A stretch of DNA of 64,000 nt from Lingula anatina. Lineage: Eukaryota > Animalia > Brachiopoda. The DNA is taken from assembly GCA_051362555.1 (NCBI GenBank), contig CM120640.1, positions 47,470,788 to 47,534,787 of the forward strand, read 5' to 3'. The number at the start of each line of letters is the position of its first letter. Position 1 is the first letter of the stretch. Below, one piece after another: positions 33,347 through 38,453 of the stretch. The notes under the pieces are model-generated. The model worked only from the letters and a program-made list of their open reading frames with translations, was not told the DNA's origin and did not search any database. Both the position numbers and the translations under genes were made by a program.

Positions 33347-36300
33347 CTACTGCTGGTGCTTTTTGTAGAGTGCAATAACATCCTCCACATCTTCTTTGGA
33401 ACCCAGAAAGATGGGAGCTCGCTGATGGATGGATTCAGGGACGATGTCAAGGATAGGCATGGTCCCAGTGGAAGCAAGTCCGCCTGCTTTCTCTATAATG
33501 TATGCCATAGGGTTGCATTCATACAGCAGGCGTAGCTGAGGAAAAATATACAAATTGCTGTTAGTTCAAGGATAAGGAACAACTTTTTAATATACATACA
33601 CACTAAAAGCATATGTGCACTTGGTGTTGGTGTGTACTGTACATGTATGCAGGTGGCTTTAAACATGCAATGTTATATTTTATACAGGCCGTGTTCAGAA
33701 TAGTACTTGCAGGATTGATTTATCTCAGCAGGGATTCTTGCTAAGGCACAATGTAATCAGTTTGTCTGGCATGCCCCCTCACAAACCAACATGAACAACA
33801 TCATGGATCACAAAATTTTCCTGACTGTACCCAACTATTTTAAGTTACTAGGGGACATGCCAGACAATTAAGTTGATTACATTGACTGCACCTTAGTAAG
33901 ATACCTCGCTGAGATAGCTCAATCCTGCTAGTACAATAGCTTCTATTCTGAACACAGCCTTAGTTTTATAACATTGATATTAAATTTAAATGGACTTCAA
34001 TGATGTGGTTATGCTCAAAATATACTAACTCAGTTACGTATATATGCACTGCAATAGCTCAAATCGTATTCTCACTAATGCTGCTTTTGCTGATAAAGAG
34101 TTACTACTGAAACTTCTTTACATCTTACATCCTAATCCTATACCAAGCCACCCTTTGAATAAAATACTTAGTGGGAATTCAAGCAGTATGTTCCTGCTAG
34201 AGACTATTAAACTGCAATGTATATACTTCAGATACAAACAAGACAAATCACTGCAAACAGAAGCACATACACAGTGCACAGTGTATTTACTGTAAAACTG
34301 TTGTCAACCCAGAATGTCATTCAAGAAAATGCAAAAGTAACACTATAGCCAGATCATGAAGCAAAGAAAGTAAAGATTTCATGCAATCCCCATTGAAAAG
34401 TCCTTATTGTCATGAAGCAAAAAGGGTAAAGACATAATGTGCAATCCCCATGGAAAAGTTCTTATTGTCAACTTAATAAGTGTATTGCATATACATGTAT
34501 CTCTATACTGGTAGTAACCCTTCTTTTTAATTAAAGCCTACGAAAGCATTTACATTTCTAAAGTAACAAAACAATTTAGTAAACAAGTGGCTGCTATAAA
34601 TCCATAGCTAAAGCTACCACATTGTTAGAGCTAAGCATGTGTAAACCTTACTTTTCCCTTAGGTGTCTCAGATGTAGCTGGGTACATGAAAATCCCTCCA
34701 TATAACAGTGTTCTATGCACATCAGCCACCATGGAACCTATATAGCGGGCACCATATGGTTTCCCAGTCTGATGAATGGTATATACAGTCATAAGCATTA
34801 GCTCAGTGGTTATTGTATATGCTTTGAAAGGGTTAAAACAACATACTCATGCATGAAATTTAAAAAAAGGTGGAAATGACCAGTGGTGTCCTTCATTGCT
34901 TGTTCCTGCGTGCTCACGGTGTTTTCAAAAATTAATTTGAGGCTTTTTTTCCAAAAGAAAAAAATTATAATGAAAATTTATAGTATATTACCTTTTTTGT
35001 ATCAAAATGATTATGGGCATCATGATGATAAGACCCCCCACATGAAATAACAAACAATCAATGGAAGTCACTGGTCAAGACAAAGGTAAATCATCATGCA
35101 TGCACATACGAAACCAACACTATAACAAAAAGGAACAATCATACAAAAAACAGCCACAGATTCAGCCAGTTGTCTCATCTGTACCTTCCCTTTCGGAGAT
35201 TCTGAGGTGGCAGGATACATGAAAATCCCCCCATACATAAGAGTCCTGTGAACATCTGCTACCATGGAGCCAATATATCTTGCTCCGTATGGTTTCCCAC
35301 TCTAAAATAATTTGTTATATTTCAATAAAGTTCTGTATGTGACAGAGGGGCACTGATAATCTGCGTGTGCTATCACTGAAATAAATAGACCACCCATATT
35401 CTGCTTCTGTATCTGTCAGCATTTACCTGAAACTACTATTAAAAATGCTGTTATAACATATTACATAGTTCAATTTTTTTATACAGTTCCACATGAAATG
35501 TAAAACCACAGTAAAACATACCTTGCAAAAATTTGTATCTACATATTTATGTTGCCTATGACAATACTAATCTTAATCACATTTTTAAAAACCCACATTT
35601 TAAATTAATCAAACAAATCATCAAAAAGACAAATATAAACAAATTAACATATTTTAATATAAATATAATATATTTAGATAGAATTAATTTTAAAAAACAT
35701 AAAAACAATACAAGATATTGAAGCTCTTTGGTTTCAGCACAAGAATTTGTGAAGGGTAACAGTACCTTTGGATATTTCTTGTTTTCTACATACTCCTTCA
35801 TGGCAGGATCCCAAAACTTGGCATAGCCTTCGTTGACTGAAAAGATTTTTCCTCTAGGCTTGATCTGAATATTACGCTGGGTCAGGATGAATTCTCCAAT
35901 GGCCTAAAAACCATACAAAAAGATTTAATGCTACCATTCCTAAGCACATCAGTAAAACTGCATCAAAAAACTACAATTAGAAACTATCTACCCTGCAAAA
36001 ATAATATTTTTGTTTGGGATCATTATATGCCACCTGGTTTGCTGGACAATGTTCATTTCTTTTTCATGCAAGCAACTTCATTCTTGGCAAATACTTGTCT
36101 GTCAACTTTAACGTCTGACAAATGGTTCCACTCACAGGGTCCAGCATGAAGGAATTGACCTCATCCCCTGTGGAGAGCACCACTGCAGTGGCACTGCCAT
36201 ACAATGCATAGCCTGCTGCTACAATGTTACGGCCAGACTGGAGGGCATCCTTGATGGTGGGTGGTCCCTCATGGTCCTAGAACAGTGTAAAATGTAACAA

Positions 36301-38453
36301 AAGGGTTTCAAAGATACTTTTTTTCCATTTATGTCAATGATTTGTTTCAATAAGAGCATTGTTGTTCGCAGAAATTCACTATATAGATGGTAACATTTTA
36401 AAGTACAAGTCCATAATTTGATGAGCAGTTCATTTTTTATATATTGATTTGACAGCAAACTTAACAGAGTAAAATCATTTTAGTCCAATATTTTTTATTA
36501 TTAAAGATTTTTTTTGCAAATTACAGCATAGAGCCTTACCTTTCTCAGAATGGCAAATATTGTTCCAATGGACACAAGACAATCAATATTGGACGAGCCA
36601 TCCAGTGGGTCAAAGCACACAATATACTTGCCCTGCAGTAAAACAAAAATTTAACTTCATCTAAGATACAGGCAAAATTCTTGTTAAGAATTTTTGTATA
36701 AAATTCCCTCACTTGGAATGGAAAAAAAATTAAAATGAAATTATCAGAAAAAAAGTTTACTTATTTTTGTAGTCATTATGCACATTTTTATTATATTAAT
36801 ATTCTTTTCAAAAAAAGAAAAAAAGAAAAAACTAACCTGCCGCTCTATCTCTACTTCAATGACGTTTTCGTTTTCCTCAGATACCAACAAGCAGGTGGTG
36901 AAGGAAGACTTGAGCATGTTAATAAACACCTCATTTGCAATCACATCCAGTTTTTTCACTTCCTCACCCTGGACATTGGTAGCCCCAGCAATACCAAACC
37001 TGTAACACAGCACATGTAAGTTACTGTTCAAGTAGGACTTGTGCATTGAATCAGAGCAATAGTCAAGTAAATATGTTCACCATATCTTCAACTCCATAGC
37101 ACTGCCTCCAGCAGTATGCACAAATGGTAAACCACAAATGGCAGAGCCATGTGATTTTTCCAGTGACCACGTCCTCTGAAACTCAGGCTGAATGGATAGC
37201 ATGCTATCCTCAGAAACAAAAAGCTAAGAAAAATATAATTAAATGTACCCACTTCACTTACAAAGATGCCATCCCTGCCCTACGAACAGCAGACGAAACT
37301 GCTTTTACCGCAGTCAGAAGTCCATTGAGTAACTGTGTAAGATCCCCTGTAGCTTCAGGATGCTTCTTTTGTTCTTGTAATACAAATCTCGTCAGTGTCA
37401 TACAGTCCGTATCAATCCCATGGGTATTTTTGGAACTCATTTTAAGACTTAGTTCAGGCCTTACCCAGTCTGGCAATGAACACTATTAGTAAAACAACAC
37501 TCACACTCTTCTACACAGTACAAGTGCAGTGTAGTTATTTGCCTCTGCAATGTTAAGGGCAAATCAAGGTTACAGAATACTGCACCTTCAGCATACTGGT
37601 ATATACTGTACTACATACTAGTATGCTCTACCTATACTAGGGATACCTTAACACTTACATGTACCTGTGCTGGGGGTGTGTCCAAAATTATACAGATGAC
37701 TGTATGCAATACACATGTTCAGTATGTAAATCTTTGTAAATGTACTAAATACTCTACATATTTCCAATTATCTCATGTTGAAAAAAAATAAGCTCGAAAC
37801 CCGTAAAAACACCCAAATGACAGACATAACAGCTGGTTCAGCAACATACTGCAAGATTTAACATTCATCCAATGCCCCTTGCCAGCTGCAGGTCTATATA
37901 TAATTCCAAAATATCCTAAATAAACTGCTACATGTATCATTCAGAAATACTTCTTATTGTATTTCATTCAAGAGCCCATCATGTAATCTAATATATAACA
38001 TTTCTCTTTTGATAATAATTCTTTTTTCTGGTTATACAATTTTTAAATGAATTTTTATTATGCTATAAAAAAATTAATACAATTTGTCACTAAATAGCCA
38101 CCGGTAATAAAGTAATGTTTTTTTTTTCTTCTTTTTTTTTCAAACTTTCCAAAATGAACACTAAAATAAAATTAACTTTCTTATAATGTTAAATAATCAA
38201 TTTTCAACAAAACAATTATTGTACGTTTCCTTCAGACCATTTTTTATTTATTTATAACTGGGACCACTTACAGCTGAGCAATCCCTGCCTTTCTCACAGC
38301 AGAGGACACTGCCTTGATGGCAGTCAGCATTGCGCTCAGCAGCTGAGTCAAGTCACCCGAAGCTTTGGGGAACTTTCTCTGTTCTGCCAGCACATAGCGA
38401 GTGAGAGTCAGGCAGTCTGTGTCAATCCCGTGTGCGTTCTTTGAGCTAGACAT
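33347..38453 (-). CDS. FBP1: Fructose-1,6-bisphosphatase class I, with two duplicated exon pairs
   Basis: Exons (minus): 1a 38272-38453 or 1b 37262-37440; 36837-36999; 36540-36632; 36136-36276; 35766-35903; 6a 35185-35301 or 6b 34652-34768; 33347-33535. Motifs: [64 protein letters not shown]. Internal exon sizes 163/93/141/138 match the vertebrate FBP structure as recalled. The symbol denotes the family; likely co-orthologue of FBP1/FBP2. Confidence 0.97.
33686..33960. mobile_element. Degenerate foldback MITE (possibly Harbinger-type) in the last FBP intron
   Basis: AGGCCGTGTTCAGAATAG..GTACTTGCAGGATTGA..TATCTCAGC..TGTCTGGCATGCCCCCT pairs with GGGGACATGCCAGACA..GCTGAGATAGCTCAATCCTGCTAGTAC..CTATTCTGAACACAGCCT. 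TSD not clear. Confidence 0.7.
34652..34768 (-). CDS. FBP1: FBPase exon 6, copy b (117 bp; not in the ORF track)
   Basis: [53 protein letters not shown], phase 0-0. Confidence 0.92.
35185..35301 (-). CDS. FBP1: FBPase exon 6, copy a (117 bp)
   Basis: [51 protein letters not shown], phase 0-0. Confidence 0.92.
37262..37440 (-). CDS. FBP1: FBPase first coding exon, copy b
   Basis: [59 protein letters not shown](L). AAA-ATG context; phase-2 donor TT|GTAAGT; upstream TACTAAT (37485-37491) and TTCATTGCCAG acceptor (ends 37470). Confidence 0.93.
38272..38453 (-). CDS. FBP1: FBPase first coding exon, copy a
   Basis: [60 protein letters not shown](L). AAA-ATG context; phase-2 donor CT|GTAAGT; upstream TACTAAC (38506-38512) and TTTGTACGCAG acceptor (ends 38481). 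Confidence 0.93.

What the first reader, a model, noticed from the sequence alone, without database searches (positions are those of the whole stretch)
33347..38453. One FBPase gene with two independent duplicated-exon clusters: isozymes by mutually exclusive splicing
Seen: two intact copies of the ATG exon (1a/1b; 45 of 60 aligned residues identical, same phase-2 donor) and two intact copies of exon 6 (6a/6b; both 117 bp, phase 0-0). All other exons are single copy, so this is not a whole-gene duplication. Established: vertebrates make liver FBP1 and muscle FBP2 from two genes that differ in AMP/Ca2+ regulation, and PKM exons 9/10 are the classic case of isozymes made by mutually exclusive exons. 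Inference: this animal can build up to 4 FBPase isoforms by swapping the allosteric N-terminal module and an active-site module independently, a PKM-like switch in gluconeogenesis. I do not recall this being described for FBPase, but novelty needs a literature check.
Basis: partly seen in the sequence, partly recalled or inferred. Interest (0 to 1): 0.88.

Follow-up and report, generated by a model that had tools for sequence, protein, structure and literature searches.

The report
FBPase with two swappable duplicated exons
A lamp-shell (Lingula) gene for the glucose-making enzyme fructose-1,6-bisphosphatase carries two old copies of its first coding exon and two of its sixth, uses one of each pair per message in proportions that flip between RNA samples, and so likely makes differently regulated enzyme versions from one gene, where vertebrates use two genes.

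Summary
Real and expressed. The gene is Lingula anatina FBPase. It has two homologous ATG exons (1a, 1b) and two 117-nt copies of exon 6 (6a, 6b), saturated at synonymous sites but conserved in protein. In four RNA runs all four copies are spliced and no 6a-6b, 5-7 or 1a-1b joint is listed. Usage flips: X1 is 1a with 98% 6b; X4 is 80% 1b with only 6a. Three combinations are supported; 1b-6b was not seen, so independence is unshown. 1a/1b behave as alternative first exons, not PKM-type cassettes. They differ at AMP-signalling positions (19, 22, 25, 27). 6a/6b differ by three conservative residues, none catalytic, and the Ca2+ determinant (Glu69) is in a shared exon. RefSeq already models all four isoforms; my literature searches found no paper on it. 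Protein pairs differing only in the exon-1 region also occur in two Octopus, two Centruroides and Babylonia; exon-6 swaps only in Lingula. Kinetic differences are untested. The scan had no earlier FBPase note.

The parts
38272..38453 (-). Exon 1a, coding part (ATG at 38453; 60 codons + 2 nt): AMP-site helices 1-2 and the hinge of loop 52-72. Likely transcript start near 38538.
   Evidence: joints 1a-2: X1 30, X4 21, X7 101, X9 131; molecule ends pile at 38538 in X7 and X9
37262..37440 (-). Exon 1b, coding part (ATG at 37440; 59 codons + 2 nt), homologous alternative first exon; RNA extends unspliced upstream past 37511
   Evidence: joints 1b-2: X1 0, X4 83, X7 1, X9 3; depth 25 at 37511 in X4, no joint into it listed
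36837..36999 (-). Exon 2, shared (163 nt); carries Glu69 (muscle type) and the dynamic loop
   Evidence: the 2-3 joint has no row in the joints table (a repeat at 36805-36838 was skipped) but shows as a loose end at 36636
36540..36632 (-). Exon 3, shared (93 nt); Lys112/Tyr113 region and the DPLDGS metal motif
   Evidence: joint 3-4 in all four runs
36136..36276 (-). Exon 4, shared (141 nt); 176-STGD-179 and Asp187
35766..35903 (-). Exon 5, shared (138 nt)
35185..35301 (-). Exon 6a, mutually exclusive cassette (117 nt; pig residues 236-274)
   Evidence: joints 5-6a / 6a-7: X1 2/0, X4 127/61, X7 36/44, X9 70/76
34769..35184 (-). 416-nt intron between 6a and 6b with three TGCATG (RBFOX-type) hexamers at 35099-35104, 35095-35100 (overlapping) and 34848-34853; candidate control element
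   Evidence: at least 3 copies in 0.25% of 2000 shuffles and in 1 of 306 window tiles; at least 2 in 4.3% of shuffles. Function untested.
34652..34768 (-). Exon 6b, mutually exclusive cassette (117 nt)
   Evidence: joints 5-6b / 6b-7: X1 60/25, X4 0/0, X7 27/25, X9 34/43
33347..33535 (-). Exon 7, coding part to TAG; 3' UTR reads continue past 32800

Best explanation
One FBPase gene holds two old tandem exon duplications and uses both: transcripts start at either exon 1a or exon 1b (likely from separate promoters), splice in either 6a or 6b, and so give at least three isoforms (1a-6a, 1a-6b, 1b-6a, inferred from runs in which one choice is fixed) that likely mark different tissues and are predicted to differ mainly in AMP regulation through the exon-1 module. 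Shown: exon anatomy, purifying selection on all four copies, one-at-a-time splicing, run-to-run switching. Inferred: 1a sits about 320 nt from the start of a head-to-head F-box gene and appears in all four runs, so it is likely the broad promoter, and 1b a tissue-restricted one. Exon 6 choice cannot be policed by reading frame (117 nt each) and is most likely set by a tissue-specific splicing factor acting on the 6a-6b intron (RBFOX-type sites are the lead). The exon-6 swap probably has only a small effect on the protein.
For: Joint counts and absence of 6a-6b, 5-7 and 1a-1b rows; in X7 and X9, where both exons are used, 120 reads leave 6a for exon 7 and 61 enter 6b from exon 5. pS above 0.8 with pN 0.05-0.17. 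Both exon-6 copies and exon 1a are heavily used, and 1b at trace level (4 joints), in X7/X9, which differ from the window at many fixed positions. 1a/1b differ at positions 19, 22, 25, 27; in mammalian FBPase Thr27 binds AMP, and Arg22-Thr27 and Gln32-Glu19 contacts carry the T-state signal (PMC3785478 passages). Exon-1-only isoform pairs recur in Octopus, Centruroides and Babylonia and hit AMP-site positions.
Against: No kinetics. Tissue labels of the runs are unknown, only 4 of 9 listed runs were laid, and X7 and X9 share a study, so run differences could reflect stage or individual. Both exon-1 copies keep Glu20, Val17, Leu30 and Thr31, and the changes at 22 (R/K) and 27 (S/T) are conservative. 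All 1a/1b and 6a/6b residues but two (Gly at 1b 41 and Met at 1b position 1-2 alignment ends aside) occur in other single FBPases, i.e. these are variable columns. Phasing of exon 1 with exon 6 (535 nt apart in mRNA) is inferred, not read. The RBFOX count rests on two overlapping hexamers.
Confidence: 0.72

Rival explanations
1. Regulatory subfunctionalisation without protein difference: the copies are kept because each became the only one usable in some tissue (own promoter, own splice signals), and the enzymes are kinetically the same. This is the leading reading for exon 6 alone.
For: 6a/6b differ by only S/T, M/L, S/T; runs X7/X9 carry Leu in 6a at the M/L site. Among 18 listed coding variants I classified, 3 of 4 in 6a change the residue against 1 of 14 elsewhere (p 0.019, post hoc, from 40 of 168 rows shown), which suggests looser constraint. 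The Ser/Thr-Pro site (human Ser271, PMC9552847 passages) stays phosphorylatable in both.
Against: 1a/1b differ at 15 aligned codons, clustered in the AMP site and tetramer interface; 1a and 1b are less alike (37 of 51) than each is to some mollusc or nemertean single copies (43 of 51). coq-2 shows that two residues in such exons can matter (PMC7434440 passages).
Confidence: 0.2
2. Full 2 x 2 combinatorial switch: four isozymes, with independent allosteric and active-site modules.
For: All four are open frames and RefSeq models all four; exon 1a is found with both 6a and 6b.
Against: 1b-6b not seen: X4 has 83 1b joints and 0 of 188 exon-6 joints on 6b; X1 has 85 6b joints and 0 of 30 exon-1 joints on 1b. 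RefSeq X-numbered models are automated and may be combinatorial (my knowledge). Exon 6 changes spare the catalytic residues.
Confidence: 0.06
3. Artefact or dead copies (assembly duplication, allelic haplotypes, pseudo-exons).
For: None beyond the general rate of such errors.
Against: Synonymous saturation, joints from both copies to the same shared exons, matching RefSeq models on an independent annotation.
Confidence: 0.02

Closest known systems
RefSeq models XP_013396230-233 (Lingula anatina FBPase isoforms X1-X4)
   Same: They are the four combinations: X1 = 1a-6b, X2 = 1a-6a, X3 = 1b-6b, X4 = 1b-6a; each matches the window but for one residue in exon 7.
   Different: Automated models with no usage data; my reads support three and do not show 1b-6b.
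Tandem duplicated exon substitutions (PMC9741552 passages; PMC8373072 supplementary table)
   Same: Homologous exons used one at a time, mostly conservative changes; the human catalogue has 40 N-terminal and 118 internal events among 236.
   Different: FBP1 and FBP2 are absent from the human table (0 hits). Here one small metabolic gene has one event of each kind.
PKM exons 9/10 and PFKP homologous exons
   Same: Carbohydrate-metabolism enzyme, same-length exclusive exons (6a/6b); an allosteric-site residue differs between isoforms.
   Different: In this gene the allosteric module is swapped by alternative first exons, and the true cassette pair changes only 3 of 39 residues, none catalytic.
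Vertebrate FBP1 (liver) and FBP2 (muscle)
   Same: Same enzyme family; 1a scores best against FBP2 (54.4 vs 49.1 bits) and 1b marginally against FBP1 (52.4 vs 51.1); 1a shares Leu11, Tyr16, Met37, Ile41 with FBP2.
   Different: Two whole genes there. The proven determinants Lys20, Thr177/Gln179 and Glu69 are not swapped here: both copies have Glu20, and Glu69 and Thr177 are in shared exons.
coq-2 exons 6a/6e (PMC7434440 passages) and OGDH 4a/4b (PMC7969005 passages)
   Same: Metabolic enzymes tuned by exclusive homologous exons; coq-2 in invertebrate lineages.
   Different: Function shown there, untested here. The OGDH distant-branch-point mechanism does not fit: the 6a-6b intron has 14 AGs, the nearest 33 nt upstream, and a branch-like motif 32 nt upstream of 6b.

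Membership tests
Class I fructose-1,6-bisphosphatase | FBPase N- and C-terminal domains above curated cut-offs | tested here: met
   PF00316 256-258 bits and PF18913 168-169 bits for X1 and X4
Class I fructose-1,6-bisphosphatase | Conserved metal and substrate motifs | tested here: met
   Full-length alignment to pig enzyme, E 6e-151, motifs intact
Class I fructose-1,6-bisphosphatase | Catalytic activity and AMP inhibition | not testable with these tools
   needs assay
Homologous mutually exclusive cassette exons (6a/6b) | Adjacent homologous exons, same length and phase, valid splice sites | tested here: met
Homologous mutually exclusive cassette exons (6a/6b) | Each copy joined to both flanking exons; no co-inclusion or double skipping | tested here: met
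   630 joint reads over the four expected joints, no 6a-6b or 5-7 row at a listing threshold of 3 reads per run
Homologous mutually exclusive cassette exons (6a/6b) | Regulated, tissue-specific choice | tested here: inconclusive
   6b share 0.98, 0.00, 0.39, 0.35 in four runs; tissue labels unknown
Homologous mutually exclusive cassette exons (1a/1b) | Internal cassette spliced from a common upstream exon | tested here: not met
   No joint into 1a or 1b listed; ends pile at 38538 for 1a; unspliced RNA upstream of 1b. An acceptor-like site 29 nt before the 1b ATG exists but no use was listed.
Duplicated alternative first exons (N-terminal substitution) | Homologous ATG exons each spliced to the same exon 2 | tested here: met
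Duplicated alternative first exons (N-terminal substitution) | Separate promoters mapped | tested here: inconclusive
   1a start inferred from read ends; 1b start only from depth decay; no CAGE or 5' RACE
PKM-like isozyme switch | Isoforms differ in allosteric regulation | not testable with these tools
   residue mapping only
OGDH-type steric exclusion | Branch point within about 50 nt of the upstream donor with a long AG-free zone | tested here: not met
   PMC7969005 passages
Docking-site/selector RNA pairing | Competing intronic duplexes stronger than chance and conserved | tested here: inconclusive
   best 6a-6b versus 6b-7 duplex -27.5 kcal/mol, reached by 6 of 40 shuffles; no orthologous introns for covariation

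The most novel reading that the evidence does not exclude
Invertebrates have repeatedly made muscle-like and liver-like FBPase isozymes from one gene by duplicating only the first exon, which encodes the AMP-sensing module: in Lingula (1a carrying four FBP2-type residues), Octopus (alternative copy with Val at position 29), scorpions (alternative copy lacking both Arg15 and Gln32 of the T-state contact) and Babylonia (Glu20 versus Lys20, the mammalian liver/muscle determinant). Lingula alone adds a second, spliced switch on top.
Probability: 0.3. Interest if true: 0.72.

Novelty: new member of a known kind. Interest (0 to 1): 0.5.

Why it matters
If the exon-1 isoforms differ in AMP sensitivity, one gene does what vertebrates do with FBP1 and FBP2, and the isoform pairs from brachiopod, octopus, scorpion and snail form natural swap experiments on the FBPase allosteric site with an identical catalytic body. 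That would show which exon-1 residues are enough to retune AMP control. The exon-6 pair is a clean case for asking why near-identical exclusive exons persist to synonymous saturation. The mechanism class itself is well known.

Tried and rejected
Whole-genome check for a second FBPase gene: no genome held; only one Lingula cluster appeared in the listed hits. RNA: 4 of 9 listed runs were laid; the other five remain unexamined, so 1b-6b may exist there. No run was listed as an indexed RNA holder; the runs came by species label. Dating the duplications: a 52-column tree left 1a and 1b unresolved and four AU tests rejected nothing (p 0.78-0.81), so shared versus independent origin with Octopus and scorpions is open. 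Orthologous genomic DNA: the 80 metagenome loci kept from 313 appear from match spans to be transcripts or intronless genes. Exon-6 swaps elsewhere: none among 332 proteins of 240-420 aa out of 382 fetched; a 4-residue Penaeus insertion flagged is an indel, not a swap. Other X1/X2 pairs (Tubulanus, Lineus, Liolophura, two scallops, Ischnura, Tachypleus, Limulus) differ only by insertions or an N-terminal extension. Frame-enforced exclusivity rejected: co-inclusion and double skipping both stay in frame. Distant branch point rejected. Docking-site pairing not above shuffles. FBP2-likeness of 1a: score +3 over five sites is reached by 1 of 220 other proteins, but 1b's -3 or lower is shared by 77 of 220, the sites were picked after seeing the alignments, and a crocodile FBP1-type N-terminus also has Leu11; kept as a lead only. 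My first exon 4 boundary was one codon too long and was corrected. No structure was predicted.
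Full report
Observation. The finding is a minus-strand class I FBPase gene. Exons: 1a 38272-38453, 1b 37262-37440, 2 36837-36999, 3 36540-36632, 4 36136-36276, 5 35766-35903, 6a 35185-35301, 6b 34652-34768, 7 33347-33535 (exon 4 end fixed). 1a and 1b both open with ATG and close on a phase-2 GTAAGT donor, with 44 of 60 full-codon columns identical (45 with the split codon). 6a and 6b are both 117 nt, phase 0-0, 36 of 39 residues and 87 of 117 bases identical. 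Only exons 1 and 6 hit twice in the window. Synonymous sites are saturated (pS 0.87 and 0.84) while pN is 0.169 and 0.052: old copies under purifying selection, not haplotypes or an assembly slip.

Identity. Exon 1a matches at 100% a protein named FBPase isozyme 2 isoform X1 of Lingula anatina. Its cluster holds four RefSeq models that are the four combinations, each differing from the window at one exon-7 residue. Pfam domains pass their cut-offs and the protein aligns full length to pig FBPase.

RNA. Nine raw-read RNA runs were listed by species label; four were laid, each read in part (6 to 30 in 100). Joints 1a-2 / 1b-2: X1 30/0, X4 21/83, X7 101/1, X9 131/3. Joints on 6a / 6b, both sides summed: X1 2/85, X4 188/0, X7 80/52, X9 146/77. 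No 6a-6b, 5-7 or 1a-1b joint is listed; the listing needs 3 reads in a run, and one joint row at a repeat was dropped by the tool. Exclusivity is best tested in X7 and X9, where 120 reads go from 6a to exon 7 and 61 from exon 5 to 6b. X1 against X4 differs at p 2e-16 (exon 1) and 2e-47 (exon 6). Exon 1 and exon 6 lie 535 nt apart in mRNA, so phase is inferred from runs with one fixed choice: 1a-6b (X1), 1b-6a and 1a-6a (X4). 1b-6b has no support. X7 and X9 (one study) differ from the window at many fixed positions, yet use both exon-6 copies and 1a heavily and 1b at trace level. Tissue labels are unknown, so 'tissue-specific' is inference.

How exon 1 is chosen. No joint leads into 1a or 1b. 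Molecule ends pile at 38538 in X7 and X9, 85 nt before the 1a ATG, and X4 has unspliced depth 25 at 37511, upstream of 1b. These behave as alternative first exons. An F-box gene starts head-to-head at 38857 (opposite-strand reads), about 320 nt from the 1a start. 1a is present in all four runs and 1b dominates one, so I infer a broad promoter for 1a and a restricted one for 1b.

How exon 6 is chosen. Frame cannot enforce it. An OGDH-type distant branch point (PMC7969005, passages) does not fit: 14 AGs in the intron, the nearest 33 nt from the 6b acceptor. Intron duplexes are no stronger than shuffles (6 of 40). The 416-nt 6a-6b intron has three TGCATG hexamers, two overlapping; three or more arise in 0.25% of shuffles and 1 of 306 window tiles, two or more in 4.3%. 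That this is the RBFOX motif, and that such sites favour the upstream exon and repress the downstream one, is recalled. It is a lead.

What the swaps change. Exon 1 spans mammalian residues 1-56. 1a/1b differ at 11 (L/M), 16 (Y/F), 19 (A/Q), 22 (R/K), 25 (K/E), 27 (S/T), 35-37, 41, 50 (K/R), 53 (I/M) and 55. In human muscle FBPase AMP is held by Val17, Thr27, Glu29, Leu30, Thr31, Lys112 and Tyr113; Arg22-Thr27 is needed for AMP cooperativity; Gln32 contacts Arg15 and Glu19 in the T state; K20E lowers AMP sensitivity 22-fold (PMC3785478, passages). So the differences fall in the right place but are mostly conservative, and both copies keep Glu20. The Ca2+ determinant Glu69 (PMC4822563, passages) and 176-STGD-179 are in shared exons. 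Exon 6 spans 236-274; the changes are S/T236, M/L257 and S/T270. The last matches human Ser271, a reported CDK site (PMC9552847, passages), and stays Ser/Thr-Pro in both. In X7/X9, 6a reads Leu at 257 and has two further conservative changes, which argues against a fixed functional difference there. 1a scores best against FBP2 and 1b marginally against FBP1; 1 of 220 other proteins is as FBP2-like at five post hoc sites. I treat this as weak.

Other animals. Among 332 proteins of 240-420 aa (of 382 fetched), pairs with the same body and a different exon-1 region occur in Octopus bimaculoides, O. vulgaris, Centruroides vittatus, C. sculpturatus, an unnamed scorpion-like cluster and Babylonia areolata (three residues only); exon-6 swaps occur only in Lingula. 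The alternative copies change position 29 (Octopus), 15 and 32 (scorpions) and 20, Glu to Lys (Babylonia). These are protein records; I did not see their genomic exons, and the Babylonia pair could be allelic. The sample is what three searches and 30 clusters returned, not a census. The exon-1 tree is unresolved.

Literature. Searches of the open-access library listed no paper on alternative or exclusive exons in an FBPase; may have missed the comma spelling, and subscription papers are largely absent. FBP1 and FBP2 are absent from the human tandem-exon table (PMC8373072, supplement search). The class is well known (PMC9741552, passages; coq-2, PMC7434440, passages). MetazExp (PMC8728262, listing only) mentions Lingula and may hold this event in its database; not checked. 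Earlier scan notes held nothing on FBPase.

Verdict. Observation confirmed and expression shown; interpretation partly supported. It is a new member of a known kind, already present as automated gene models, with unreported usage data and a recurring exon-1 pattern worth an enzyme assay. Interest 0.5; most novel reading 0.3 likely, 0.72 if true.

Noticed in passing
window 38857-40700, + strand: F-box gene (PF12937, E 1e-12) head-to-head with the FBPase, its ATG about 320 nt from the likely 1a start; probable bidirectional promoter.
   Followed up: partly
window 33686-33960: A 275-nt near-perfect inverted repeat (folds at -127 kcal/mol) in the 6b-7 intron, MITE-like in shape.
   Followed up: partly
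window 34354-34470: Two tandem copies of a roughly 57-nt unit in the 6b-7 intron.
   Followed up: no
window 37470-37490, - strand: Branch-point-like ACTAAT and an acceptor-like AG 29 nt upstream of the 1b ATG, followed by a donor-like GTAAGG; no use listed in four runs.
   Followed up: partly
runs X7 and X9 over window 32800-38900: Many fixed differences from the window (most reads 95-99% alike) under the same species label, suggesting a divergent lineage.
   Followed up: no
proteins P0002/P0084, P0004/P0085, P0164/P0222: Nemertean and chiton FBPase isoform pairs differ by a 6-10 residue insert at the exon 2-3 border, next to the Lys112/Tyr113 AMP contacts; possibly a shared micro-exon.
   Followed up: no
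proteins P0126, P0127: Crocodile and hamster records that look like fusions of neighbouring FBP1 and FBP2 gene models.
   Followed up: no
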